A stretch of 35,895 nt of DNA from a virus, in the IMG/VR virus record IMGVR_UViG_3300020191_000002; one strand, written 5' to 3'. Of the stretch, positions 1 to 35,895 are shown in pieces; the first letter of the stretch is position 1; every line of letters begins with the position of its first letter. Below the pieces are notes generated by a model. It was given only the letters and a program-made list of their open reading frames with translations. It ran no database searches and had not been told where the DNA came from. The position numbers and the translations under genes were made by a program.

Positions 1-65
1 CCCGTGTACTACCACGGAATAACCCGTGTACTACCACGGAATAACCCGTGTACTACCACGGAATA
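1..65. repeat. Left terminal repeat: three tandem copies of the 22-bp unit CCCGTGTACTACCACGGAATAA (third copy 21 nt)
   Basis: Read directly. 1-65 is base-for-base identical to 35831-35895. Each unit contains the inverted repeat CCGTG-N6-CACGG. Confidence 0.9.
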
Positions 66-281
66 CCATGGCGATGGACTGCTATGGACCTCTGCAGAAT
101 TCCTGAGAAGCTTCCCGTGTATTCATAAGGAATCAGGCCTACCGGGGGGGACCCATGGAGCCAACGCTTCTATGTATATACCCTCAGGACCACATGAGAA
201 GCAATTTCGAAGTCCCTGAATTAGATAATTAACTTGAGCATACTAAAATTAACTCTTGACTTCTCAGGTTGGGCGGGGTAT

Positions 282-421
282 TCCTAAGAAGTCCTAAGAA
301 ACTGCTTGACTTTAGTCTCAATATATGATATAATATAGTTATACTTAAGACATCTTAGGTTATTCATTAAGTAGTTTATTAAAATTAATAACATAGTAAC
401 ATCTTAAGACTTCTTAAGTAA
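282..421. promoter_or_regulatory. Three 10-bp-phased pairs of TCYTARGA octamers (282-301, 343-362, 402-421) bracketing the rightward promoter
   Basis: TCCTAAGAAG/TCCTAAGAAA, ACTTAAGACA/TCTTAGGTTA and TCTTAAGACT/TCTTAAGTAA. The core TCTTAAGA is itself palindromic. All copies lie in non-coding DNA. Confidence 0.55.
306..334 (+). promoter_or_regulatory. Sigma70-type promoter for the rightward arm
   Basis: TTGACT (306-311), 17-nt spacer, TATAAT (329-334), with an extended -10 TG (TGATATAAT). It sits about 130 nt upstream of the first SD-led ORF. Confidence 0.75.
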
Positions 422-26019: not shown

Positions 26020-26664
26020 TTAATTCTCCTCTTTCATCAGTGCATCCCAACTTATATTATAAAACATTTTAGCACGACTGTCAATCTCTTTTGCAATGAA
26101 GCTTGTCTCTGCCTGTGCATCCTCAGCCAACCTCAGTTTACATACACGGCTGAAGGCGTACAATGATCCGGTCCAGTACCACTCAGTATACGCACTCTGA
26201 GGCAGCACCATACGTGCCTGTTCAGGAGATACCCCCAGTTCTAATAGATGTTTGTATGTCCACAGGGCTTTGTTCAAGGACATATGATAAGGATCAACCA
26301 TTTGATCATGTTGATTGATGTCTATAATCTCATCAGAAGAACCCTGCTTTTTATTCTCCGCAGCCCCTCTCCAATGTTCAGGTTCATAGAACTCTGGATC
26401 ATCAGACACGTACCGCCTACTTACCTCGTTCCAGACCAGACCTACTTGGTGCTTGGCAAGCTGCCGAGCTACAAAGATAGGTGCTTTGATACGAAACTGT
26501 AGGCTAGTATGTGCAAAAGGGGACCAATGTTTATGAGAGGCAAGGTAGTTGATAAGTTTTTCATCACCGTCTTGTAAGTCTGAATGTTGTTTACTGAAGC
26601 TAACCCTTGCTGCGTTTACGATAGTCAGGTCAGACCCCATGTAATCTATAAGTTGAACCTTCAT
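26020..26664 (-). CDS. thyX: ThyX-family (flavin-dependent thymidylate synthase-like) protein with an altered signature
   Basis: GSDL..VNAARVSF, HWSPFAH, KAPIFVARQ, NEVSRRY and a C-terminal LRL..DAQAE fit ThyX. RHR..S is replaced by KHQ..L. Confidence 0.7.
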   Translation of the reverse strand: MKVQLIDYMGSDLTIVNAARVSFSKQHSDLQDGDEKLINYLASHKHWSPFAHTSLQFRIKAPIFVARQLAKHQVGLVWNEVSRRYVSDDPEFYEPEHWRGAAENKKQGSSDEIIDINQHDQMVDPYHMSLNKALWTYKHLLELGVSPEQARMVLPQSAYTEWYWTGSLYAFSRVCKLRLAEDAQAETSFIAKEIDSRAKMFYNISWDALMKEEN

Positions 26665-28301: not shown

Positions 28302-28324
28302 TTTTATGGGACGGTCCCAGATTA
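28302..28324 (-). promoter_or_regulatory. Palindromic intergenic element, copy 1 (subtype TGGGAC-N-GTCCCA)
   Basis: TTTTATGGGACGGTCCCAGATTA. Overlaps the polymerase stop codon and lies 1 nt from the exonuclease SD. Confidence 0.6.
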
Positions 28325-30052
28325 ATGAGTTGATGCCCAGTTGTCTCCGACTTTGTACTCACCGTCCAAAGGACACTTGAGTTCCATCCGAGTACCAGCC
28401 GCTTTGATACACTCTACTGCCAACCATCCAAACTTTTCTGCATGAGCTTCCTTAACTTCTACCTGAAACTCATCATGTATATTTCCTACAAATCTGTAGT
28501 CCATGCTATGTATGATAGCATACTCATCTAAGATTGTCAATGCTTTCTTCATAATAACTGCACCGGCTGACTGTAAAAGTGTATTCAAAGCAGCGTGTTC
28601 GCTTCGTACTATCAGGCGTCTGCCGTCGAGTCCTCTGAGGTGGCCCCGCTTGGCCGCCCGTAGGACTCGTTCCCGTAGAGTTCGAAGAGATGGTGTGTTA
28701 GTGAGAAACTTTTCTTTAAGTTTTGCTCCGTCTCGTTTAGAACCGCCGACAACGCTTCCGATCTTGGCATCTCCTGCGCCGTAGAGGAAAGCATAGATAA
28801 AAGTTTTAGCGTTGTCTCTTGTTGAAAGGCCAGCAGCTTTCTGGTTTGCTGTATGTACGTCTCCGTGCGTGACTTCATGTGTGTACTCCTCATCGTTCAT
28901 GTAATGGGCTAACATTCTAAGCTCCAGACCTGCCGCGTCTATGCCTACAAGCTTGTAACCTTTTGGTACTGTCCAGCACTGACGACATTCAGTGCCATAC
29001 GGGGAGTAAGAGGCAGGGACTTGTGCCATATTAGGGCTGCTATGGGTCATGCGTCCCGTTACTGCACCGATAGGATTGACCCTACCGTGTACCCTGCCGT
29101 CTTCCTCCACCGCTTCTATCCAAGACTGAACTTGCGCTGATCTCTTCTGCAACATAAGATACTCAGCTATTAGTTTGGCTTCGGGTATATCAACCTTGGA
29201 TAAAATTCCTTCGTCTACTATCGGCTGACCCTTCTCAGTAAAGTTCTCTGGCTTCCATCCGTAGAACTTAAGATGTCTTCCGATCTGTTGTCTCGAACCT
29301 AGATTAAACTCAGGCCAGTCTACCCTAGAAAACGGACCAGCGATGCTACTGTAATCATCACCAAGAAACCTAAGACCAACACTGCTAAGGGTGTTATCTT
29401 TTTTAATTTTAGGAGTGACCTCCCTGACAAATACAGGTAGCGGCGTAAACCTTTTATGCACTTCTTTTTCAACTTCAATACTCCTTTGTTTTAGTTGCGC
29501 TTGTATGTCAAAAGCTTTCTTCATATCAAGCAACCAACCAGTTCGTTCTTGTTTAGAGATAATCTGCTGAACTTTATGCTCCAGTTCTACAGACTCTCCG
29601 GGAAACTTACTGAGCAATTCAGCAAGCTTGGTGTATAACTTAGCAGTAACTTCAACGTCTATCGTGCAGTACTTAATCATCTCTTCTGAGAGCTTAGTCC
29701 AATCATCATGCTCAGACTTTGGAAACTTCAGCCTCTCTCCCCATGCACGTAGCGAGTGACCCCCGTCTAATTGTGGATCGTACAGCCTCGACATGACAAG
29801 AGTATCCTCAATCTCCACGCTATCAAAAGAAATACCAAGGTGTTTTTCTAAAACTGGTTGATCAAAATTTGTAATATTGTGACCAATAATAATGTCAAAC
29901 CCATTGATATACTCCTGTATTTCTTCTCTCTCAACCGCTGGATTTAAAAAGTTCTTCTTGTATCCAGAATCCAAACTCATTGTCCCAATCATCCAGATGT
30001 TCTTGACGGGGAAAGCGGTGGTTTCGATATCTAGTATAAGCTTCTGTGTCAT
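28322..30052 (-). CDS. Family A DNA polymerase with 3'-5' exonuclease domain
   Basis: Exo motifs LDIETT, HNITNFD, YCTIDV. Pol motifs A (IDAAGLELR), B (RDNAKTFIYAFLYGAG) and C (NIHDEF). Confidence 0.9.
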   Translation of the reverse strand: MTQKLILDIETTAFPVKNIWMIGTMSLDSGYKKNFLNPAVEREEIQEYINGFDIIIGHNITNFDQPVLEKHLGISFDSVEIEDTLVMSRLYDPQLDGGHSLRAWGERLKFPKSEHDDWTKLSEEMIKYCTIDVEVTAKLYTKLAELLSKFPGESVELEHKVQQIISKQERTGWLLDMKKAFDIQAQLKQRSIEVEKEVHKRFTPLPVFVREVTPKIKKDNTLSSVGLRFLGDDYSSIAGPFSRVDWPEFNLGSRQQIGRHLKFYGWKPENFTEKGQPIVDEGILSKVDIPEAKLIAEYLMLQKRSAQVQSWIEAVEEDGRVHGRVNPIGAVTGRMTHSSPNMAQVPASYSPYGTECRQCWTVPKGYKLVGIDAAGLELRMLAHYMNDEEYTHEVTHGDVHTANQKAAGLSTRDNAKTFIYAFLYGAGDAKIGSVVGGSKRDGAKLKEKFLTNTPSLRTLRERVLRAAKRGHLRGLDGRRLIVRSEHAALNTLLQSAGAVIMKKALTILDEYAIIHSMDYRFVGNIHDEFQVEVKEAHAEKFGWLAVECIKAAGTRMELKCPLDGEYKVGDNWASTH

Positions 30053-30329
30053 CTATCAATGTCTCACCGTTTTTTAAAGCAACGTGTTCAAGTCTATGGC
30101 AGTTACTACATAGTATAGCACACTTGGCAGCTTCGTCAAGAACTTCTTGGTTCAACCTGTTCGACCTCCACTTGGATGCCTTGAGTCCGAACTGTTTTGT
30201 CTTGGGATTTCGATGGTGAAACTCCAGCACCTCTTCAGGATAGTGTTGATTGCATACCTCGCATGAATAGTTTGTCCTGCTCTTGACATACAATGATCGA
30301 TTCAATCTTCCGACATCAGAATTCTTCAT
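29931..30329 (-). CDS. HNH endonuclease (free-standing, homing-type)
   Basis: CEVCNQ...LEFHHRNP...N...LCSNCHRLEH. Overlaps the helicase 3' end (14 nt) and the polymerase 5' end (122 nt). Confidence 0.75.
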   Translation of the reverse strand: MKNSDVGRLNRSLYVKSRTNYSCEVCNQHYPEEVLEFHHRNPKTKQFGLKASKWRSNRLNQEVLDEAAKCAILCSNCHRLEHVALKNGETLIDDTEAYTRYRNHRFPRQEHLDDWDNEFGFWIQEELFKSSG

Positions 30330-31965
30330 CAGCTACTCCCTGAATCTCAGGCGCAGCACCGGCAACCATACGCCCTGTGTCTGTGTCGAAGTACAGCCAG
30401 CCAGCGTGTCCTGTGCGTCCTGTGCGACGACACTTAACAAGCTGAACCTTAGTGCAGTTGCGTTCATAGTCATCCTCAGACAGCTTGTCGCGGCTCAGGA
30501 GGATGGTATTAAATGCAATCTGATTGATAGACCCTGATCCTTTCATGTCGTACTCACTGACATCGTGAGGGTCTTTGACTGCAGGTTTCCTGAGATGGGA
30601 TACGATGATGATAGCTGCATTGGTTTCCTTGGCAAGCTTCAAGCAGCCATCCATGAACGAGTCTATCATCCCGTTCTCATTCGACTGTACTGCTGCCTGT
30701 AGAGGATCAAGGATGATAACCTCACAGTCCAGACCTTTGATCAGGTAACGCATACGAGCGAACAGGTCTTCGATGTCAGACGATCCGGCATGGTCATCGA
30801 TGTGTATACGGTCAGACTCTTTGACCTCATCATAGAAGCCACGGTACTTGGTGTAGTCCCTGTCTTCCTCCTGTATCATCTTGATGTTCACACCGCCGAC
30901 GACACTGACGACGTTCTCGGTCGTCTCTCCAATGGAGGACTCAAGGAAGACAGCCCCTATCCTGCGGGTGGTTTCATTGTACAAACCGTACAACAAGTTG
31001 GTTACGAATGTGGTCTTACCTACAGATGTTAAGGCTCCTATGACAGTCACCTCCCCTGCCCCCATGCCACCGTTCATCATGCGATTGAGTGTACCAAACG
31101 AGGAAGGGAAGGGGATAATCTCCGCCTTGCCTCTGTTCACAAACGCATCCCAGCAAGCTTCGTCAGATAGAGATACAACCCCGGCAGGTTTATATGCCTT
31201 CGCATCCCACCATGCCTTGACGAACTGCTGTACCTTACCCGCAGCCAACATATCACCGGCATCTTTCATAGGCAGTGTAACTACCTTTGCCTTACCCGGA
31301 GAGAATAAAGTCATGGCTTCTTCGGATGCCTTCTGACCTGCAGGATCGTTATCAAAACAGATAACAACTTTATCGAAAGTCTCCAGCCACGGGAGAGATT
31401 CCTTGATGTCCTTAGCTGCTGCTGCTGCTCCTCGCTTGATGCTGACGACGGGGTACTTCCCATCGAACATCTCAGCAACAGCCATAGCATCGATCTCTCC
31501 CTCGGTGATAGTGACAAACCTACCACCTTCAGCCCAGATGCTTTGTCCGAATAGTCCTGTGGCTTCCAAGGTGCCTGTGGAATAGAAGTCTTTTGTCTCG
31601 CACCGACGAACCTTGGTTCCAACTACATCGCCCGACGACTGCAAACGATAGGGGTAATGATGACGGGTTACACGCCCGTCCTTGTCATGCTCAAGAGTAA
31701 CTCCAAACTTTTCTACAATCTTCTGAGAAATACCACGGTCCTTAAGTGGGCCTGAGAGTCCGGTCATTTCTACTTTCCTTTTCGATTTGTATTGAGAGAG
31801 GGGAGCGGGGGGAGCCGAAGCCCCTCCCGCCCGTGTATATCCACACTTGAAGCAATACCCGTGGCCGTCGCTGTAGACCGCTAGGTTGTCTCCCTTCTTG
31901 TCACCACCGGCTGCTCTGCAAGCGGGACAAGATGCCTTGGATACAAACACTGACTGCTCAAGCAT
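30316..31965 (-). CDS. Bifunctional primase-helicase (T7 gp4-like)
   Basis: Zn finger CPAC...(x)...CFKCGY, TOPRIM TEGEIDAMA, Walker A GALTSVGKTT, Walker B VIILDPLQ, and an acidic tail ending ADEEF. Confidence 0.9.
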   Translation of the reverse strand: MLEQSVFVSKASCPACRAAGGDKKGDNLAVYSDGHGYCFKCGYTRAGGASAPPAPLSQYKSKRKVEMTGLSGPLKDRGISQKIVEKFGVTLEHDKDGRVTRHHYPYRLQSSGDVVGTKVRRCETKDFYSTGTLEATGLFGQSIWAEGGRFVTITEGEIDAMAVAEMFDGKYPVVSIKRGAAAAAKDIKESLPWLETFDKVVICFDNDPAGQKASEEAMTLFSPGKAKVVTLPMKDAGDMLAAGKVQQFVKAWWDAKAYKPAGVVSLSDEACWDAFVNRGKAEIIPFPSSFGTLNRMMNGGMGAGEVTVIGALTSVGKTTFVTNLLYGLYNETTRRIGAVFLESSIGETTENVVSVVGGVNIKMIQEEDRDYTKYRGFYDEVKESDRIHIDDHAGSSDIEDLFARMRYLIKGLDCEVIILDPLQAAVQSNENGMIDSFMDGCLKLAKETNAAIIIVSHLRKPAVKDPHDVSEYDMKGSGSINQIAFNTILLSRDKLSEDDYERNCTKVQLVKCRRTGRTGHAGWLYFDTDTGRMVAGAAPEIQGVADEEF

Positions 31966-32339
31966 TAGAAATCCTCTTCGTCTACTCCACCATCCATCTG
32001 TGCCATCTCAAGAACCTTGATCTTCTTGAAGTATGGCGCGACACCATGCTGAGGGTGAGGCTTGCCGGGGTCCCACATAACCTTGACCTTGGAACCGTAG
32101 GGAATGTACTTCGCAGTAGCCTCTCCGTCCGCATCAAGGACAGGGAATCCTGAGAACTTGGTGACAAACTTACGCTGCGGCTGGTTCTTGTACTCCTTCA
32201 GCTTGATACCTTCGCTTGCCAGCTTGGCTGCTTCGTCAGGGTCCAGCGTCAGGGTGATAGAATACTTACCAGTATCCTGTCCGTTGTAAAGTTCAGTCTC
32301 TTCGAGATTTGAAAACGCAACAATGCCTTCGGTAATCAT
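31965..32339 (-). CDS. ssDNA-binding protein (T7 gp2.5-like)
   Basis: SD AGGAG. OB-fold-like pattern, acidic C-terminus ending DEEDF, and position just upstream of the primase-helicase. Confidence 0.6.
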   Translation of the reverse strand: MITEGIVAFSNLEETELYNGQDTGKYSITLTLDPDEAAKLASEGIKLKEYKNQPQRKFVTKFSGFPVLDADGEATAKYIPYGSKVKVMWDPGKPHPQHGVAPYFKKIKVLEMAQMDGGVDEEDF

Positions 32340-32351
32340 AGCTTATGCTCC

Positions 32352-32549
32352 TTATTTAGAGAGAGAATAGCGAACGTAACGGCGACCAGTAGGGTCAGTA
32401 CGTCTTGAACGTTCGATCTTAAAACCTTGTTCTTCAAGGTCGTTGATCCGGCGTGGGAGACTAGCAATCCGGTAAAGGTCGCGAGCTTCGTATCCACTGA
32501 TGGACTTGCCTGTTTCAAGGTGGCGGTAGATTTGTTGAACCTGATTCAT
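32352..32549 (-). CDS. Winged-helix/HTH DNA-binding protein (HTH_39-like)
   Basis: SISGYEARDLYRIASLPRRINDLEEQGFKI....GRRYVRYSL matches the HTH_39 pattern. SD AGGAG. Confidence 0.65.
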   Translation of the reverse strand: MNQVQQIYRHLETGKSISGYEARDLYRIASLPRRINDLEEQGFKIERSRRTDPTGRRYVRYSLSK

Positions 32550-32576
32550 GTTGATCTCCTATCTGTTTACCTAAAT

Positions 32577-32605
32577 ATAATACAAAAGATTCTCTCGTTT
32601 GTCAA
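32577..32605 (-). promoter_or_regulatory. Sigma70-type promoter for the HTH/replication genes
   Basis: On the minus strand: TTGACA (32605-32600), 17 nt, TATTAT (32582-32577). About 28 nt upstream of the HTH ATG. Confidence 0.7.
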
Positions 32606-32608
32606 CTG

Positions 32609-32773
32609 TTATTCTACATCGAACTCCTTCATGTACCATCCATTCCATCTGTCATCCCCTAACTTAGTGGCAAAGTCCCTCCAGATAACAGCATCTTCCT
32701 CGTTTGAAAAAACTTTAGATACCTTGGAGACATCGTACCCGTCATGGCAGAAGACAATCCATACTTTATCCAT
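32609..32773 (-). CDS. Hypothetical protein (54 aa)
   Basis: Hand-translated: MDKVWIVFCHDGYDVSKVSKVFSNEEDAVIWRDF... ATGGATAA overlap with the upstream ORF. Confidence 0.5.
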   Translation of the reverse strand: MDKVWIVFCHDGYDVSKVSKVFSNEEDAVIWRDFATKLGDDRWNGWYMKEFDVE

Positions 32774-32936
32774 CGTGTTCTCCATTCAGATATTCATTAA
32801 GTTCTTGTTCTATTGCTTCGACCGAAAGATCACGCTTAAGACTGCGAAATGTTTTATGACTGTGCATCTTATCCATGTCACGTTTCACAGGGTTTCTTTT
32901 CTTAGGTTCCTTCCGTCGAAAGTTCTTGGAAGACAT
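32766..32936 (-). CDS. Hypothetical basic protein (56 aa)
   Basis: Hand-translated: MSSKNFRRKEPKKRNPVKRDMDKMHSHKTF... SD AAGGAG. Preceded by palindromic element copy 2. Confidence 0.5.
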   Translation of the reverse strand: MSSKNFRRKEPKKRNPVKRDMDKMHSHKTFRSLKRDLSVEAIEQELNEYLNGEHDG

Positions 32937-32957
32937 AACAACTCCTTTCTTGTTTGA

Positions 32958-32980
32958 TTTTATGGGACCGTCCCAGATTT
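32958..32980 (-). promoter_or_regulatory. Palindromic intergenic element, copy 2
   Basis: TTTTATGGGACCGTCCCAGATTT, 11 nt from the SD of gene 32766..32936. Confidence 0.6.
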
Positions 32981-33046
32981 CTTAGGAAGTCTTAAGAATA
33001 TAATCATTAAGAATAATTAATCATATCCCTAAGCCTTCCTAAGTAT
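32980..33046. promoter_or_regulatory. Two further 10-bp-phased TCYTARGA-type pairs (32980-32999 and 33027-33046)
   Basis: TCTTAGGAAG/TCTTAAGAAT and CCCTAAGCCT/TCCTAAGTAT in the intergenic gap. Confidence 0.5.
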
Positions 33047-33047
33047 C

Positions 33048-33227
33048 TTACAGGGGTTCGTCCTCATTGTCAACAACTAAATTTACATCGTTGATAAAAT
33101 CATACTCCTCTGTCGTTTCGTATATGTTTCCGACACACCTATTGCAAATGTCAAGGTGGGTTCCGTCTACGTCCAGACGTTTTAACTCTGTCGAACTGAG
33201 GACCGCGTCACATATTTTACATCTCAT
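33048..33227 (-). CDS. Zinc-ribbon-like small protein (59 aa)
   Basis: Hand-translated: MRCKICDAVL...(x)...CNRCV. SD AGGATAAATAAAATG, identical to that of gene 33995..34675. Confidence 0.55.
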   Translation of the reverse strand: MRCKICDAVLSSTELKRLDVDGTHLDICNRCVGNIYETTEEYDFINDVNLVVDNEDEPL

Positions 33228-33232
33228 TTTAT

Positions 33233-33487
33233 TTATCCTGCGTTAAAAGATGCACAAATTATAGCACCGGGGTAGATGTCATCGTCAGGTTCACCCACGA
33301 CTTCACCCAGATATATATACTTCACTAAATCAGGGCGTGATACCCAATTATCGTATAGCAAAAAGTCATCTGATCCATCACAGGGGTGTATCTTCTGTGC
33401 TTCTTCTGCACTATTAGCAACCACTACAGCACTGTCGAAGGTGTCGTAGCCGTTGTTGATGATCTGGTATATTTTAAATAGTTTCAT
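33233..33487 (-). CDS. Hypothetical protein (84 aa)
   Basis: ORF track. SD GAGG. No function assigned. Confidence 0.6.
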   Translation of the reverse strand: MKLFKIYQIINNGYDTFDSAVVVANSAEEAQKIHPCDGSDDFLLYDNWVSRPDLVKYIYLGEVVGEPDDDIYPGAIICASFNAG

Positions 33488-33547
33488 TAGATCAACCTCA
33501 CAAAGAATATAAACATTAAAATCTGTATCAAGAGTAGTGACAAGTCG

Positions 33548-33706
33548 TCACTTAGTACTGCTTTTAAGATTCTTAGCACTGAACAATTCCTTCTGCATTT
33601 TTACTTCTGTTTCATAAGCATTTCGTCTGACTGTAGGTGACCAATACCATGTCGGCATTGTGTCATACCTACGTTCTAGTTCTTGGCACCAGTTATAATA
33701 ATCCAT
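33548..33706 (-). CDS. Hypothetical protein (52 aa)
   Basis: Hand-translated: MDYYNWCQELERRYDTMPTWYWSP... TAATG coupling to the upstream ORF. Confidence 0.45.
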   Translation of the reverse strand: MDYYNWCQELERRYDTMPTWYWSPTVRRNAYETEVKMQKELFSAKNLKSSTK

Positions 33707-33957
33707 TACTCTTTCTCCTCTTGAAATAATTTATCCCAATAACTGACAAGATACCCTCTTGTGAATACCATTGCAACAAAAACTTTTCTGCCCGGTTCAT
33801 ACTCCTCCTCTGTCTGATACATTCCAGTGTTACCCTTCGGCGGTATGGTATATCCAGCCTTTCTCAAAGCTTTCACAGTATCCTGTGTCTCTTTCTTCGT
33901 CCAAATTCTAGCTACCATCTGTCCTTGTTCCTCCATTATATCATGCCATGCGTTCAT
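33706..33957 (-). CDS. Hypothetical protein (83 aa)
   Basis: ORF track. SD AGAGGA, 2 nt after palindromic element copy 3. Confidence 0.6.
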   Translation of the reverse strand: MNAWHDIMEEQGQMVARIWTKKETQDTVKALRKAGYTIPPKGNTGMYQTEEEYEPGRKVFVAMVFTRGYLVSYWDKLFQEEKE

Positions 33958-33972
33958 AGTTCTATCCTCTAC

Positions 33973-33996
33973 TTTTCTGGGACCATCCCAGATTTT
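33973..33996 (-). promoter_or_regulatory. Palindromic intergenic element, copy 3 (subtype CTGGGA-CCA-TCCCAG)
   Basis: TTTTCTGGGACCATCCCAGATTTT. Overlaps the stop of 33995..34675 and lies 2 nt from the next SD. Confidence 0.6.
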
Positions 33997-34675
33997 AATC
34001 GATCACAAATCCGCTTGTGTCCTTCTTCGCTTTACCCTTCGCATAGAGTGCCACAACTACCCCCTGAGGGTCAAGAAACCTGAGATCGTCGCTATCGCCG
34101 TCTATTACAGGACGCCCCTTGAATACTTTGGGAATCTTGTTTTTGTCCCTGAATACTACAGCGATATTGGCGTTATATTTTGTTGAATACTTCAACACGT
34201 TATCGGCATATTCTACATTAGCCTCGCTGTAGCTCAGTGTCAAGTGATAATTTGAGGGCCATGACCTAGCGACACGATTGTACACTTTTGTATAATCATA
34301 GAATTGTATGCCGGGAAATTCCTCAATAATATCGCGCCAATTATAGTCTGACGTACCGTTAAGACGTACCACAGGTTGAATACCCCGCTTCTGGCAATAC
34401 TTCTGGAACTTTATCAAGTCCGTCCTGAGAAGTCTATAGAATTCCTCGGGCAGCTTGAGAAGCAGGTCCGATTTACGTTTACGCGCCGCCTGTACACTAT
34501 TGAATGCGCCGCGACCTGCAGTGTTCAAGCATCCCTCGCGACACGCTGCAGTGCGAGACATGGGACACAGGAAGTCATCCGGTAGCAGGTAGACAATCCC
34601 TGTCAGATATTCTGAGCCATCGCCCTTGATTGTCTTTGCGTTAGTTCCTACGCCTATGATTTTATAATTAGCCAT
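33995..34675 (-). CDS. GP88-like Cys-rich protein of unknown function
   Basis: Start at MANYKI (34675) after GAGAGGA. NAKTIKG...CP.......C...CLNTAGRG...RLNGTSD...DGDSDDLRFLD pattern (family name from memory). Confidence 0.55.
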   Translation of the reverse strand: MANYKIIGVGTNAKTIKGDGSEYLTGIVYLLPDDFLCPMSRTAACREGCLNTAGRGAFNSVQAARKRKSDLLLKLPEEFYRLLRTDLIKFQKYCQKRGIQPVVRLNGTSDYNWRDIIEEFPGIQFYDYTKVYNRVARSWPSNYHLTLSYSEANVEYADNVLKYSTKYNANIAVVFRDKNKIPKVFKGRPVIDGDSDDLRFLDPQGVVVALYAKGKAKKDTSGFVID

Positions 34676-34692
34676 TTTATTTATCCTCTCAA

Positions 34693-34715
34693 TTTTCTGG
34701 GACCATCCCAGATTT
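34693..34715 (-). promoter_or_regulatory. Palindromic intergenic element, copy 4
   Basis: TTTTCTGGGACCATCCCAGATTT, 3 nt from the SD of 33995..34675. Confidence 0.6.
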
Positions 34716-34725
34716 CTACAGTAAC

Positions 34726-34914
34726 TTACTCGTTTGATTCTTTTATCAGTGAGGGAATATTCCCATCCATTTTCCACAACGTCACTTCAATATCGCCACG
34801 GGAAACCCTATCATTGAACACGACATCAGCTTCACTTTGCGTTTCAGCGTCAAACGGTGGTGCGGCTGTGTGGTTATCAATGAAACCTTGAACAGAAAAT
34901 CTTGTATCAGTCAT
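34726..34914 (-). CDS. Hypothetical protein (62 aa)
   Basis: ORF track. SD AGAGGA, 2 nt after palindromic element copy 5. Confidence 0.55.
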   Translation of the reverse strand: MTDTRFSVQGFIDNHTAAPPFDAETQSEADVVFNDRVSRGDIEVTLWKMDGNIPSLIKESNE

Positions 34915-34928
34915 TTTATTTCCTCTAA

Positions 34929-34951
34929 TTTTCTGGGACCATCCCAGATTT
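34929..34951 (-). promoter_or_regulatory. Palindromic intergenic element, copy 5
   Basis: TTTTCTGGGACCATCCCAGATTT, 2 nt from the SD of 34726..34914. Confidence 0.6.
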
Positions 34952-34972
34952 CCAGCGTTGAATGTACTCTAT

Positions 34973-35002
34973 AGGACCGCCTGAGCATTGTCAAGCGGTC
35001 CT
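34973..35002. other. 8-bp-stem inverted repeat just downstream of the first early gene
   Basis: AGGACCGC (34973-34980) and GCGGTCCT (34995-35002) with a 14-nt loop. No U-tract on either strand. Confidence 0.4.
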
Positions 35003-35015
35003 GAGAATACACCCC

Positions 35016-35555
35016 TCACTTGTTTTTGAAGAGGTTCACGACGTCCTGAATGACTTCTGCGGGGTCATGTCCTGCTTGTTCCGCCTGTATTAGCAGGGCA
35101 TAGATGGAACTGGCGTAATCGTCCTTCTGACCGTCTGGCGTAGTGTCCTCAGTAGGTTCCTCAGTAGCTTCCTCAGTAGCTTCCTCAGTAGCTTCCTCAG
35201 CGGCCTTCTGAGCCTTCTGGATGGCCTTCCTCATGGCGTCTAGTTTACGCCAGCCGTTAGTTTCTCCCTCAGTGATAATCGCGTCATAGTTCTGATAGGT
35301 GAACTTGATATCCCGAACATGCTCAGAACGATCCGCCTGAGATAGCATCACGAACATGTCCTGCAGCACATGAGAACCGTCTATCATTTTTTTAGTCAAT
35401 GATTTCTCAGGCCATGCCGCACCCGTTTCATTCATGATTATCTCAGCGGCCTGCAGATATACCTCGGTTACCAGTTTGCGGGTCTGATGTCCACTCATGA
35501 ATGACGCATCAACAAGGGCGGCGTTTACTGCTTCGACTGTTTCCTGATAAGACAT
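35016..35555 (-). CDS. First leftward gene: strongly acidic protein with EEAT repeats
   Basis: 179 aa. By hand count roughly twice as many D/E as K/R. AEEATEEATEEATEEPTED is encoded by a 12-bp tandem repeat. Confidence 0.7.
   Translation of the reverse strand: MSYQETVEAVNAALVDASFMSGHQTRKLVTEVYLQAAEIIMNETGAAWPEKSLTKKMIDGSHVLQDMFVMLSQADRSEHVRDIKFTYQNYDAIITEGETNGWRKLDAMRKAIQKAQKAAEEATEEATEEATEEPTEDTTPDGQKDDYASSIYALLIQAEQAGHDPAEVIQDVVNLFKNK
35147..35206. repeat. 12-bp tandem repeat (CCTCAGTAGCTT, about 5 units with degenerate outer units) inside CDS 35016..35555
   Basis: Read directly. In frame, so copy-number change would preserve the reading frame. Confidence 0.85.
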
Positions 35556-35598
35556 AGTAGAGAACCTTTCTGAATGTTTGTCATTATTGACACTCAGG

Positions 35599-35627
35599 AA
35601 TATAGAGATGCATCAATATCCCGTCAA
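35599..35627 (-). promoter_or_regulatory. Sigma70-type promoter for the leftward early genes
   Basis: On the minus strand: TTGACG (35627-35622), 17 nt, TATATT (35604-35599). About 45 nt upstream of the ATG at 35555. Confidence 0.6.
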
Positions 35628-35693
35628 TAAAATAATGAACTAATTTTAAATTAATTTCAGTTAGCGTTATAAATCAATAGGTTATCATATGAA

Positions 35694-35717
35694 TTTTATG
35701 GGACCGTCCCACGTTTT
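35694..35717 (-). promoter_or_regulatory. Palindromic intergenic element, copy 6 (upstream of the early promoter)
   Basis: TTTTATGGGACCGTCCCACGTTTT, about 67 nt upstream of the -35 at 35622-35627. Confidence 0.55.
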
Positions 35718-35763
35718 CTGCAGTGTTCTGTGCGCTGAGATGTCCTGATAGATGGCTTGTGAA

Positions 35764-35825
35764 GTCCTGAGAATACCATACTCATGCATTCTTTCTTCTC
35801 ACGTATTCTCCCGTATTCTCAGGAC
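35764..35825. repeat. 12-bp perfect inverted repeat GTCCTGAGAATA / TATTCTCAGGAC next to the right terminal repeat
   Basis: 35764-35775 and 35814-35825. The right arm lies in a 10-bp tandem CGTATTCTCC/CGTATTCTCA (35802-35821). Confidence 0.7.
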
Positions 35826-35830
35826 CTATT

Positions 35831-35895
35831 CCCGTGTACTACCACGGAATAACCCGTGTACTACCACGGAATAACCCGTGTACTACCACGGAATA
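35831..35895. repeat. Right terminal repeat, identical to 1-65
   Basis: Read directly. It is either a short direct terminal repeat or the overlap of a circular assembly. Confidence 0.9.

What the first reader, a model, noticed from the sequence alone, without database searches (positions are those of the whole stretch)
28302..35717. A 23-bp palindrome-centred element occurs six times, only in intergenic gaps of the leftward arm
Copies lie at 28302, 32958, 33973, 34693, 34929 and 35694 (plus-strand reading TTTT[A/C]TGGGAC[C/G][G/A]TCCCAGATTT). There are two subtypes: TGGGAC-N-GTCCCA (three copies) and CTGGGA-CCA-TCCCAG (three copies). Five copies end 1-11 nt upstream of the Shine-Dalgarno of the next leftward gene, and two of these overlap the stop codon of the preceding gene. 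The sixth copy lies about 67 nt upstream of the -35 of the early promoter. It would therefore not be in that promoter's transcript, which argues for a DNA-level role such as an operator or activator site. By eye I found no copy in the 23-kb rightward arm. The phage encodes no RNA polymerase, so this is not a T7-type promoter. In the sense RNA the 6-bp GC-rich hairpin is followed by A's, so it is not a terminator for leftward transcription. Read rightward it is a hairpin plus U-tract, so it could stop antisense read-through from the convergent late arm. TAAAAT or GAAAAT immediately 3' of the palindrome is -10-like, so a regulator-dependent middle promoter is also possible.
Basis: partly seen in the sequence, partly recalled or inferred. 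Interest (0 to 1): 0.7.

Follow-up and report, generated by a model that had tools for sequence, protein, structure and literature searches.

The report
Start-linked palindrome in phage early genes
A 24-base palindrome-centred sequence sits just ahead of a subset of early gene starts in an uncultured marine T7-like phage with no RNA polymerase gene, and in relatives it also sits inside the primase gene ahead of an internal start; it looks like the site of an unidentified gene-expression control, but what reads it is unknown.

Summary

The full motif is AAAYC-TGGGA-Y(S)R-TCCCA-KAAAAY on the sense strand of the leftward arm. In 21 related metagenomic loci there are 87 copies in 111 kb of control region plus early arm, and none in 137 kb of late arm.

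- **Position:** typical copies lie between a stop codon and the next Shine-Dalgarno sequence, with the ATG 15-28 nt downstream.
- **Primase copy:** in nine relatives a copy lies in frame inside the primase-helicase ORF, 19-22 nt before a conserved internal start at the position of the T7 gene 4B start.
- **Other lineages:** two use different palindromes at equivalent places.
- **Transcription:** no RNA polymerase gene was found, and sigma-70-type promoters head both arms.
- **Excluded:** a sense terminator. Disfavoured: a promoter using TAAAAT as its -10, because transcription would start in or after the Shine-Dalgarno sequence.

My best reading (about 0.35) is an RNA hairpin cassette on the early transcripts, read by an unidentified factor that sets translation or processing of the next cistron. 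A DNA operator of the "stoperator" type is nearly as likely (about 0.30). Gene-content breakpoints between relatives fall just after the cassette.

The parts
34929..34951 (-). Motif copy (palindrome 34934-34946, sense TGGGATGGTCCCA) ahead of the 62-aa gene 34726-34914. It lies about 8-10 nt downstream of the predicted start of the sigma-70-type promoter at 34994-34966.
34693..34715 (-). Motif copy (palindrome 34698-34710) between the stop of the 62-aa gene and the Shine-Dalgarno sequence and ATG (34675) of the GP88-family gene.
33973..33995 (-). Motif copy (palindrome 33978-33990). It touches the stop codon of the GP88-family gene and precedes the 83-aa gene 33706-33957.
32958..32980 (-). Motif copy (palindrome 32963-32975) ahead of the small basic 56-aa gene 32766-32936, at the end of a 111-nt gap rich in CTTAGG/CTTAAG words.
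28302..28324 (-). Motif copy (palindrome 28307-28319). It overlaps the DNA polymerase A stop codon and precedes the Cas4-like exonuclease gene. Outgroups have only TAA-GAGGA-N5-ATG at this junction.
35694..35716 (-). Control-region ('inner head') copy (palindrome 35699-35711), 66 nt upstream of the -35 of the early promoter. On the + strand it reads as hairpin + CGTTTTC.
35736..35747 (+). Degenerate relic of the second ('outer head') copy, TGAGATGTCCTG. It aligns with the intact 12-bp form TGGGATGTCCCA of relatives, which points towards the late arm.
31765..31788 (-). 'Empty site' inside the primase-helicase ORF: AAATC|GAAAAGGAAAGTAGAAATG, with both flanks, the internal Shine-Dalgarno sequence and in-frame Met67, but no palindrome. 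Nine relatives carry the palindrome exactly here.
35599..35627 (-). Sigma-70-type early promoter TTGACG-17-TATATT, driving the first early gene.
35016..35555 (-). First early gene (179 aa). It was found only in lineages carrying the TGGGA motif, so it is a weak candidate for the factor that reads the motif. This is inference only.

Best explanation
The element is a cassette on the sense strand of early transcripts made by the host RNA polymerase. It forms a short hairpin (stem UGGGA/UCCCA, loop of 3-4 nt) held between two unpaired A-runs.

It sits directly after a stop codon and 0-4 nt before the next Shine-Dalgarno sequence. In relatives it also sits ahead of an internal Shine-Dalgarno sequence inside the primase-helicase ORF.

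It lets sense transcription through. A factor that reads its sequence, phage- or host-encoded and not identified, would bind or cut there. That would set translation initiation, processing or stability of the downstream cistron for a defined subset of early genes, including the short primase-helicase form that corresponds to T7 gp4B.

The same palindrome followed by a T-run is used at the ends of the arm as a terminator-like hairpin. Because the cassette is about 35 nt of identical sequence, it also serves as a joint for exchanging genes.

**Shown:** sequence, position, orientation, conservation, restriction to the early arm, the in-ORF copy, and breakpoints next to the cassette.

**Inferred:** that it acts as RNA, that a factor reads it, and what the outcome is.
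For: - **Asymmetric motif, always co-oriented with transcription.** AAAYC on the 5' side and KAAAAY on the 3' side. The four A's are kept in at least 36 of 38 copies with a 13-bp core and at least 16 of 18 with a 12-bp core, and they are retained even in copies that are not next to a start.
- **Start association.** 56 unique copies have the ATG 15-28 nt after the palindrome, mostly 17-20 nt. In nine relatives the copy is in frame inside a continuous primase-helicase ORF of about 550 aa, 19-22 nt before a conserved internal Shine-Dalgarno sequence and ATG. That is the position of the T7 short-form start (PMC2910064). A lineage with a different palindrome places it at the same spot.
- **Variable loop length.** The core is 12 or 13 bp within one genome. 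A hairpin tolerates this better than a rigid dimer on duplex DNA.
- **Strand asymmetry at the centre.** On the sense strand T..G outnumbers C..A 26 to 3 among unique copies, and 12 to 3 among site classes.
- **Near-invariant arms.** Only one single-mismatch variant with intact flanks exists in all loci, and it keeps a U.G pair.
- **Folding.** The hairpin is predicted at -5.5 to -9 kcal/mol and leaves the Shine-Dalgarno sequence and AUG unpaired.
- **Translation-region placement elsewhere.** In L068 a copy of that lineage's palindrome overlaps the DNA polymerase start codon.
- **Host transcription.** Sigma-70-type promoters transcribe the arm, and one starts about 8-10 nt before copy 34929.
Against: - **Untranscribed copies.** The control-region copies lie upstream of the early promoter, and no convincing promoter upstream of them was found in the window. 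As RNA they need a separate role, such as terminating transcription in the opposite direction.
- **Fixed promoter spacing.** The control-region copy sits 8-11 nt from the -35 of the early promoter in several lineages and in both orientations. In L184 the lineage's palindrome is part of tandem repeats in the control region. Both look like features of duplex DNA.
- **Pattern of conservation.** An invariant stem with a variable centre is what duplex-DNA operators usually show, not RNA hairpins bound by proteins.
- **No covariation.** No compensatory changes occur within the clade, so pairing itself is untested.
- **No reader found.** The clade-restricted first early protein has no informative structural match.
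- **Loose spacing elsewhere.** In L068 and L184 the distance to the start codon varies much more.
Confidence: 0.35

Rival explanations
1. It is a duplex-DNA binding site for a lineage-specific regulator. One or two operators lie next to the early promoter, and further sites lie along the early arm where the bound protein blocks or modifies elongating RNA polymerase in an orientation-dependent way. This would resemble the operator plus 'stoperator' network of cluster A mycobacteriophages, used here for timed shut-off or tuning of early genes.
For: - The core is a palindrome of up to 17 bp, TCTGGGA-YSR-TCCCAGA.
- The control-region copy lies 8-11 nt upstream of the -35 of the early promoter in L025, L041, L042, L047/L049 (flipped), L201 and L068, the last with a different palindrome.
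- Two control-region copies lie about 110-130 bp apart.
- In L184 the palindrome sits in tandem 43-bp repeats in the control region.
- Three lineages use three different palindromes at equivalent places.
- Copies occur in places with no obvious RNA logic: before a terminator in L025, and at the junction of the arms in L030/L031.
- Precedent: stoperators lie in promoters and in short intergenic spaces, and are oriented with transcription (PMC9283540).
Against: - Half-site spacing differs by 1 bp within one genome.
- The flanks are strongly conserved but not symmetric, and the centre favours T..G over C..A on the sense strand.
- The arms are almost never degenerate, unlike typical sets of operators.
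- No candidate DNA-binding gene tracks the motif. The winged-helix protein at 32352-32549 is missing from many motif-bearing relatives and is about 70% identical in L184, which uses another palindrome.
- The phage shows no integrase or repressor of the temperate type.
Confidence: 0.3
2. It is a phage-specific promoter read by something other than the sigma-70 holoenzyme: an unrecognised polymerase, or host core enzyme with a phage factor. Transcription would start at the end of the KAAAAY flank, just upstream of the Shine-Dalgarno sequence. This is the T7 or N4 pattern.
For: - It is a conserved asymmetric element of about 24 bp, co-oriented with genes and directly upstream of the ribosome-binding site, including an internal start.
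- The two control-region copies point in opposite directions, one towards each arm.
- The sequence is specific to each lineage, as in T7-group promoters.
- The stem of 5 bp with a 3-nt loop, and conservation ending about 11 nt past the loop centre, resemble N4 virion-polymerase hairpin promoters. That comparison is from memory, not tested.
Against: - No polymerase or sigma-like protein is detectable in any ORF.
- Good sigma-70-type promoters already head both arms.
- In L025 a copy is followed within 5 nt by an intrinsic terminator.
- In L068 a copy overlaps the start codon of the gene it would have to serve.
- The junction copy in L030/L031 would fire antisense into the early arm.
- The loop centre is C or G, not a fixed purine.
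Confidence: 0.1
3. It is an array of orientation-specific intrinsic terminators. They stop rightward, antisense transcription that runs out of the convergent late arm, while staying transparent to sense transcription.
For: - On the + strand each copy reads hairpin + GATTT or CGTTTTC, and the consensus scan lists three of the six, at 33976, 32963 and 35699.
- The inner control-region copy is followed by T5-T8 in most subclades, a mean of 5.7 T in the next 8 nt.
- In L030/L031 a flipped copy with CGTTTTTT sits exactly where the early arm ends.
Against: - The stems are short, and the U-tracts of gene-proximal copies have only 3-4 U's.
- In the window no copy lies where the arms meet, at about 23.7 kb. 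The nearest is 4.6 kb inside the early arm.
- A terminator does not need an invariant stem sequence, nor four invariant A's on the non-terminating side.
- It does not explain placement ahead of the internal primase start.
Confidence: 0.1
4. It has no regulatory role of its own. It is a short conserved linker that spreads and persists because it promotes homologous exchange of gene cassettes, like the promoter-stem-loop cassettes (PeSLs) of T4-type phages, or it is a selfish palindromic insertion.
For: - Near-identical relatives share the upstream gene, the motif and the Shine-Dalgarno sequence, then diverge 1-3 nt later into unrelated genes. There are three different genes after one site, and two alternatives after the DNA polymerase gene.
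- The palindrome is precisely present or absent between retained flanks in the primase linker.
- Exact single copies occur in distant lineages with 44% polymerase identity.
- Precedent: PMC2839356, PMC4122927.
Against: - All ten stem positions and the flanks are invariant across lineages whose early proteins have diverged by 25-60%.
- The element is strictly excluded from 137 kb of late arm.
- Orientation is fixed.
- Other lineages independently place different palindromes at the same sites.
Confidence: 0.08

Closest known systems
Start-associated sequences (SAS) and extended SAS of cluster K mycobacteriophages (PMC3203893)
   Same: - A short repeat present in many copies, confined to the non-structural half of the genome.
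- One orientation, immediately upstream of start codons, often touching the preceding stop codon.
- Conserved across subclusters ahead of unrelated genes.
- The inverted-repeat part differs between subclusters.
- Function unknown.
   Different: - An SAS is a non-palindromic 13-mer that contains the Shine-Dalgarno core. Here the element is a palindrome with A-rich flanks lying upstream of a separate Shine-Dalgarno sequence.
- Extended SAS repeats are 17-bp imperfect repeats with spacers of 4-13 bp.
- The host, the phage type and the sequence are unrelated.
- Here there are extra copies next to the early promoter and inside an ORF.
Operator and stoperator sites of cluster A mycobacteriophage repressors (PMC9283540)
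   Same: - One sequence is used both at promoters and in short intergenic spaces.
- There are many copies, and orientation follows the direction of transcription.
   Different: - Stoperators are asymmetric 13-mers bound by a monomeric immunity repressor of temperate phages, and they occur on both arms.
- Here the core is palindromic and the phage appears lytic.
- The sites are confined to one arm, and no repressor was found.
PeSL promoter/stem-loop cassettes of T4-type phages (PMC2839356, PMC4122927)
   Same: - An intergenic repeat containing a stem-loop and ending in the Shine-Dalgarno sequence and start of the next gene.
- It lies at the borders of exchangeable small genes.
- Breakpoints between relatives fall in or next to the repeat.
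   Different: - PeSLs are about 100 bp and contain a full sigma-70 promoter. Their stem-loop acts as a terminator.
- Here the cassette has no -35 or -10, and it cannot terminate sense transcription.
RNase III processing sites between the early genes of T7 (from general knowledge)
   Same: - Conserved hairpins between cistrons, just upstream of ribosome-binding sites.
- They lie in the early operon transcribed by the host polymerase, in a phage of the same replication-module supergroup.
   Different: - RNase III needs about two turns of double-stranded RNA. This stem is 5-7 bp, so a different reader would be required.
Internal start of T7 gene 4, giving the 63-kDa and 56-kDa forms (PMC2910064)
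   Same: - An in-frame internal Shine-Dalgarno sequence and ATG lie directly after the zinc-binding domain of the primase-helicase. This is conserved in the window, its relatives and lineages without the motif.
   Different: - I know of no repeated palindrome described ahead of the T7 internal start (from memory; not checked). Here two lineages have each placed their own palindrome there.

Membership tests
T7-type single-subunit RNA polymerase promoter | A matching phage RNA polymerase gene in the genome | tested here: not met
   Pfam, PHROGs or PDB-sequence searches of the main ORFs, including every ORF of 300 aa or more, find none.
T7-type single-subunit RNA polymerase promoter | A conserved asymmetric element of about 23 bp, co-oriented with genes and upstream of them | tested here: met
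T7-type single-subunit RNA polymerase promoter | Transcription starts inside the element | not testable with these tools
   No RNA data are available.
Sigma-70 promoter with TAAAAT/GAAAAT as the -10 | A -35 hexamer 16-18 bp upstream, and T at the last position of the -10 | tested here: not met
   No -35 is present: the palindrome occupies the spacer, and the consensus scan lists no such promoter at five of the six copies, with only a weak 9-of-12 match starting next to copy 34693. The last position is T in 21 of 38 copies with a 13-bp core.
Sigma-70 promoter with TAAAAT/GAAAAT as the -10 | The start site lies upstream of the Shine-Dalgarno sequence of the gene served | tested here: not met
   The Shine-Dalgarno sequence begins 6-10 nt after the palindrome, so a start 5-9 nt past the hexamer falls in or after it.
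Intrinsic terminator for sense (leftward) transcription | A G+C-rich hairpin followed by a U-tract on the transcribed strand | tested here: not met
   A-runs follow the hairpin on the sense strand. A copy lies inside the primase-helicase ORF.
Intrinsic terminator for antisense (rightward) transcription | A hairpin followed by a U-tract on the + strand | tested here: inconclusive
   Three of six copies pass a permissive scan. Control-region copies have T5-T8, while gene-proximal copies have only 3-4 T.
N4 virion-polymerase hairpin promoter | A stem of 5-7 bp with a 3-nt loop | tested here: met
   The 13-bp form fits. The 12-bp form folds as a 4-5-bp stem with a 4-nt loop.
N4 virion-polymerase hairpin promoter | A large virion RNA polymerase gene, and a fixed purine at the loop centre (as I recall it) | tested here: not met
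   No such gene is present. The loop centre is C or G in equal numbers.
Stoperator/operator network (cluster A mycobacteriophages) | The same site occurs at promoters and in short intergenic spaces, oriented with transcription | tested here: met
   PMC9283540
Stoperator/operator network (cluster A mycobacteriophages) | An asymmetric site bound by a phage immunity repressor, in a temperate phage | tested here: not met
   The core is palindromic. No repressor or integrase was found. Binding cannot be tested here.
Start-associated sequences (cluster K) | Confined to non-structural genes, in one orientation, immediately upstream of start codons | tested here: met
Start-associated sequences (cluster K) | The repeat itself contains the Shine-Dalgarno core and matches GGGATAGGAGCCC | tested here: not met
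   The sequence is different, and the Shine-Dalgarno sequence is separate and variable.
PeSL cassette (T4-type phages) | A composite of a sigma-70 promoter and a terminating stem-loop | tested here: not met
   The cassette has no -35 or -10 and no sense U-tract.
PeSL cassette (T4-type phages) | Lies at the boundaries of exchanged genes | tested here: met
Lambda-type nut site (boxB hairpin) | A conserved loop read by an N-type protein, with a stem free to vary | tested here: not met
   Here the loop varies and the stem is invariant. Only in L025 does the order promoter, first gene, hairpin, terminator resemble cro-nutR-tR1.
RNase III processing site (T7 early region) | About 20 bp of double-stranded RNA | tested here: not met
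   The stem is 5-7 bp and the flanks do not pair.
Any curated RNA family (Rfam 15) | A match at the family's gathering score | tested here: not met
   There are 0 matches in the window.

The most novel reading that the evidence does not exclude
The cassette is the target of a previously undescribed factor that recognises a short hairpin by sequence. One option is a small endoribonuclease or translational regulator that marks off individual cistrons in early operons transcribed by the host polymerase. That would be a natural counterpart of engineered hairpin-cleavage insulators, and it would set the ratio of long to short primase-helicase. The other option is a cryptic transcription system that uses hairpin promoters in a 36-kb phage with no recognisable RNA polymerase.
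Probability: 0.15. Interest if true: 0.85.

Novelty: new variant of a known kind. Interest (0 to 1): 0.55.

Why it matters
T7-like marine phages without an RNA polymerase gene depend wholly on the host enzyme, and I know of no described mechanism for how they time and balance early gene expression. This element gives that question a defined handle:

- It is 24 nt long and nearly invariant.
- It is confined to the early arm.
- It sits ahead of a specific subset of gene starts.
- In relatives it sits ahead of the internal start that would give the short primase-helicase form.
- Other lineages use different palindromes at the same places, which points to a matched site-and-reader pair that can be swapped.

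The cassette also marks where these phages exchange genes, which bears on how their mosaic genomes arise.

The interest is limited because similar start-linked repeats are known in other phages without a known function. These phages are also known only from metagenomes.

Tried and rejected
**Looking for relatives, known families or an RNA polymerase**
- Near-identical DNA search against cultured phages found nothing. By protein, the closest primase-helicases are at most 36% identical, so no annotated relative helps.
- Rfam gave no match.
- No RNA polymerase or sigma factor was found in any ORF. The 955-aa and 587-aa virion proteins have no informative match to PDB sequences.
- The GP88-family protein has no PDB relative.

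**Looking for the factor that reads the motif**
- The first early protein (179 aa) is restricted to the clade. Its AlphaFold model is all-helical with mean pLDDT 78. It has no significant Foldseek match in PDB or BFVD.
- The first early gene of L068 is not detectably related to it.
It is absent from many motif-bearing relatives and nearly unchanged in a lineage with a different palindrome.

**Looking for the motif elsewhere**
- A host repeat or prophage origin was rejected: 22 single hits in 596 Gb, which is about the chance level by my estimate.
- The L068 palindrome has multiple copies only in that lineage.
- A search for degenerate copies with intact flanks gave one, too few to test for wobble-compatible variation.

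**Readings considered by inspection and dropped**
- Sigma-54 promoter: the -12 GC is absent.
- ECF-sigma promoter.
- RNase P minihelix.
- T7-type primase recognition site.
- Integron attC site.
- Nicking site.

**Literature**
- A search for a described motif in podoviruses lacking an RNA polymerase gave nothing relevant.

Full report
**What the window is.** The 35.9-kb window is a complete, circularly closed phage genome. The same 22-bp repeat, CCCGTGTACTACCACGGAATAA, occurs three times at each end.
- A rightward arm (about 0.3-23.7 kb) encodes large terminase, an SU10-type portal, major capsid, tail and internal virion proteins, holin and lysozyme.
- A leftward arm (35.6 to 23.8 kb) encodes small early proteins and a T7-like replication set: Gp2.5-like single-strand binding protein, primase-helicase, HNH endonuclease, DNA polymerase A, Cas4-like exonuclease, endonuclease I, ThyX and ribonucleotide reductase.
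- No RNA polymerase or sigma factor is detectable.
- Sigma-70-type promoters head both arms: 35627-35599 leftward, and 306-334 rightward with an extended -10. Others lie inside the early arm at 34994, 33531, 33073, 32605 and 26084.
- No cultured phage is close.

**The observation.** No other copy exists, even allowing a mismatch, and the chance expectation is below one. The details about the Shine-Dalgarno sequences, the stop codons and the distance to the early promoter are correct.

**Conservation.** IMG/VR holds many uncultured relatives. Every relative with at least 74% DNA polymerase identity carries the motif.

From 56 unique gene-proximal copies, the element on the sense strand is A-A-A-Y-C, TGGGA, Y-(S)-R, TCCCA, K-A-A-A-A-Y.
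- The ten stem positions never vary.
- The four A's after K are kept in at least 36 of 38 copies with a 13-bp core.
- The ATG follows 15-28 nt after the palindrome, mostly 17-20 nt.
- The upstream stop codon is usually 2-4 nt before the palindrome, so it overlaps the 5' flank.

One subclade (82% polymerase identity) mostly uses a 12-bp core, TGGGA-YR-TCCCA, but keeps a 13-bp core at one site. Other subclades do the reverse.

Only one single-mismatch variant with intact flanks exists in all the sequence fetched.

In 21 terminase-anchored loci of the clade there are 87 copies in 111 kb of control region plus early arm, and none in 137 kb of late arm.

The motif with its flanks is not a bacterial repeat.

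**The most informative finding.** In nine relatives from three subclades a copy lies in frame inside a continuous primase-helicase ORF of about 550 aa.
- It sits in the linker after the zinc-binding domain.
- It lies 19-22 nt before an in-frame Shine-Dalgarno sequence and ATG (...GLEM-S/V/I/L-G..GP...).
- This is where T7 gene 4 starts its short 56-kDa form, which lacks the zinc-binding domain (PMC2910064).
- The internal start is also conserved in the window (KVEMTGLSGP) and in the motif-less lineage L054.
- The window keeps both flanks there (AAATC|GAAAAGGAAAG...ATG) but lacks the 13-bp palindrome.
- The amino acids encoded across the motif differ between subclades while the nucleotides are kept.

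So the element is tied to starts and is not just filler in intergenic gaps. It also cannot terminate sense transcription.

**Other lineages use other palindromes.**
- L068/L064 (55% polymerase identity) carry eight copies of TGCGAAC-S-GTTCGCA-A. One lies 9 nt upstream of the -35 of the early promoter. Most of the others lie between genes, one may lie inside a 156-aa ORF, and one overlaps the DNA polymerase start codon.
- L184/185/187 carry AGTAACTAC-N4-GTAGTT. It occurs three times in tandem 43-bp repeats in the control region, once about 15 nt after a TATAAT, and once in frame in the primase linker 27 nt before the internal ATG.
- Several other lineages have no repeated palindrome.
- At the junction between the polymerase and exonuclease genes, outgroups have TAA-GAGGA-N5-ATG. 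The TGGGA clade has an extra tc-palindrome-taaaata.

**Copies that are not next to a start.**
- The control region usually holds two copies 110-130 bp apart.
  - The inner copy lies 8-11 nt from the -35 of the early promoter in L025, L041, L042, L047/L049 (flipped) and L201. The window's own subclade is an exception at 66 nt. On the late-direction strand it is followed by T5-T8.
  - The outer copy is a 12-bp form pointing towards the late arm. In the window it is degenerate, at 35736-35747.
- In L025 the order is early promoter, first gene, stop codon, motif, intrinsic terminator, sigma-70 promoter, motif, next gene.
- In L030/L031 a copy sits in the last seven codons of the last late gene. 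Early-arm transcripts there meet a hairpin followed by CGTTTTTT.

**Breakpoints between relatives.** Close relatives share the upstream gene, the motif and the Shine-Dalgarno sequence, then diverge 1-3 nt later into unrelated genes. Exact single copies also occur in distant lineages with 44% polymerase identity.

**Weighing the mechanisms.**
- *Sigma-70 promoter using KAAAAY as the -10:* excluded by geometry. There is no -35, and the start would fall in or after the Shine-Dalgarno sequence.
- *T7- or N4-style promoter:* this fits the anatomy, including the divergent control-region copies. It lacks a polymerase, and the L025, L068 and junction copies contradict it.
- *Array of antisense terminators:* this fits the control-region copy. 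It does not fit the invariant stem, the invariant A's, or the lack of a copy where the arms meet in the window.
- *RNA-level reading:* favoured by the asymmetric flanks and fixed orientation. It is also favoured by the 12/13-bp tolerance, by T..G outnumbering C..A at the centre on the sense strand (26 to 3 unique copies, 12 to 3 site classes) and by the near-absence of degenerate arms. Placement ahead of the internal start and over a start codon in L068 points the same way.
- *DNA-operator reading:* favoured by the fixed spacing to the early promoter in either orientation, the tandem control-region repeats in L184, the invariant-arms and variable-centre pattern, and the stoperator precedent (PMC9283540).

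I rank the RNA cassette first at about 0.35 and the DNA operator second at about 0.30. No reader was identified. The clade-restricted first early protein is the only candidate that tracks the motif, and its model is uninformative.

**Comparison with known systems.** In outward behaviour the closest match is the start-associated sequences of cluster K mycobacteriophages, whose function is also unknown (PMC3203893). In its link to gene exchange, the closest are the PeSL cassettes of T4-type phages (PMC2839356). As a DNA model, the closest are stoperators. The element fails at least one defining feature of each, so it is a new variant of a known kind and not a member of any of them.

Noticed in passing
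window 1-65 and 35831-35895: The 22-bp unit CCCGTGTACTACCACGGAATAA is repeated three times at each end of the window. Either the contig is circularly closed with up to six tandem repeats, or it carries an assembly overlap. The repeats lie in the non-coding region between the two divergent arms, so they may belong to an origin or a packaging site. Each unit contains its own small inverted repeat, CCGTG...CACGG.
   Followed up: partly
window 31765-31767 (internal ATG) within primase-helicase 30316-31965 (-): A conserved in-frame internal Shine-Dalgarno sequence and ATG lie directly after the zinc-binding domain. This predicts a short primase-helicase form like T7 gp4B. It is conserved in motif-bearing lineages and in the motif-less L054. 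A G/C-rich hairpin (GGGGN...NCCCC) lies about 25 nt upstream in the Gly/Pro linker.
   Followed up: partly
window 34997-35010, 35764-35776, 35813-35826: GGTCCTGAGAATAC occurs three times, twice direct and once inverted. The copies lie around the early promoter region and just after the first early gene. They may be a separate operator.
   Followed up: no
window 270-300, 340-420 and 32976-33047: Clusters of CTTAAGA, CCTAAGAA and CTTAGG words lie just downstream of strong sigma-70-type promoters: the late promoter at 306-334 and the one at 33073-33045. Similar words occur at the same places in relatives, and as a CCTTAGGAC tandem array in L054. This looks like a second regulatory motif.
   Followed up: no
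window 34973-35002: A 12-bp-arm inverted repeat, AGGACCGCCTGA/TCAAGCGGTCCT, follows the first early gene. It encloses the -35 of the promoter at 34994. This stem-loop-plus-promoter arrangement resembles a PeSL.
   Followed up: no
window 26056-26084 (-) and 306-334 (+): A perfect TTGACA-17-TATAAT lies inside the 3' end of thyX. A near-perfect extended -10 promoter lies at the head of the late arm and is conserved in relatives (L181 6721, L201 9142). It is unexplained how such a strong late promoter is kept off early in infection.
   Followed up: no
window 29931-30329 versus 28322-30052 (-): The HNH endonuclease ORF overlaps the longest DNA polymerase A ORF by about 120 nt, so the true polymerase start is probably further downstream.
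   Followed up: no
window 35128-35211: A 12-bp tandem repeat inside the first early gene encodes an acidic (EEAT)n linker. The linker varies in length between homologues.
   Followed up: partly
L061 1-60: A distant relative without the motif begins with four or five tandem copies of TTATCCACAGG, which contains the DnaA-box consensus TTATCCACA. This suggests the control region of these phages is a replication origin.
   Followed up: no
L025 5586-5640: In a G+C-richer relative the first early gene is followed by stop codon, motif and a canonical intrinsic terminator, then by a sigma-70 promoter and a second motif. The order recalls cro-nutR-tR1 of phage lambda.
   Followed up: partly
L019 6919, L010 3742, L001 397, L006 8989: Exact single copies of the 24-nt motif occur in much more distant phages, with 44% polymerase identity and 33-36% primase identity. 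The distribution is patchy relative to the phage phylogeny.
   Followed up: partly
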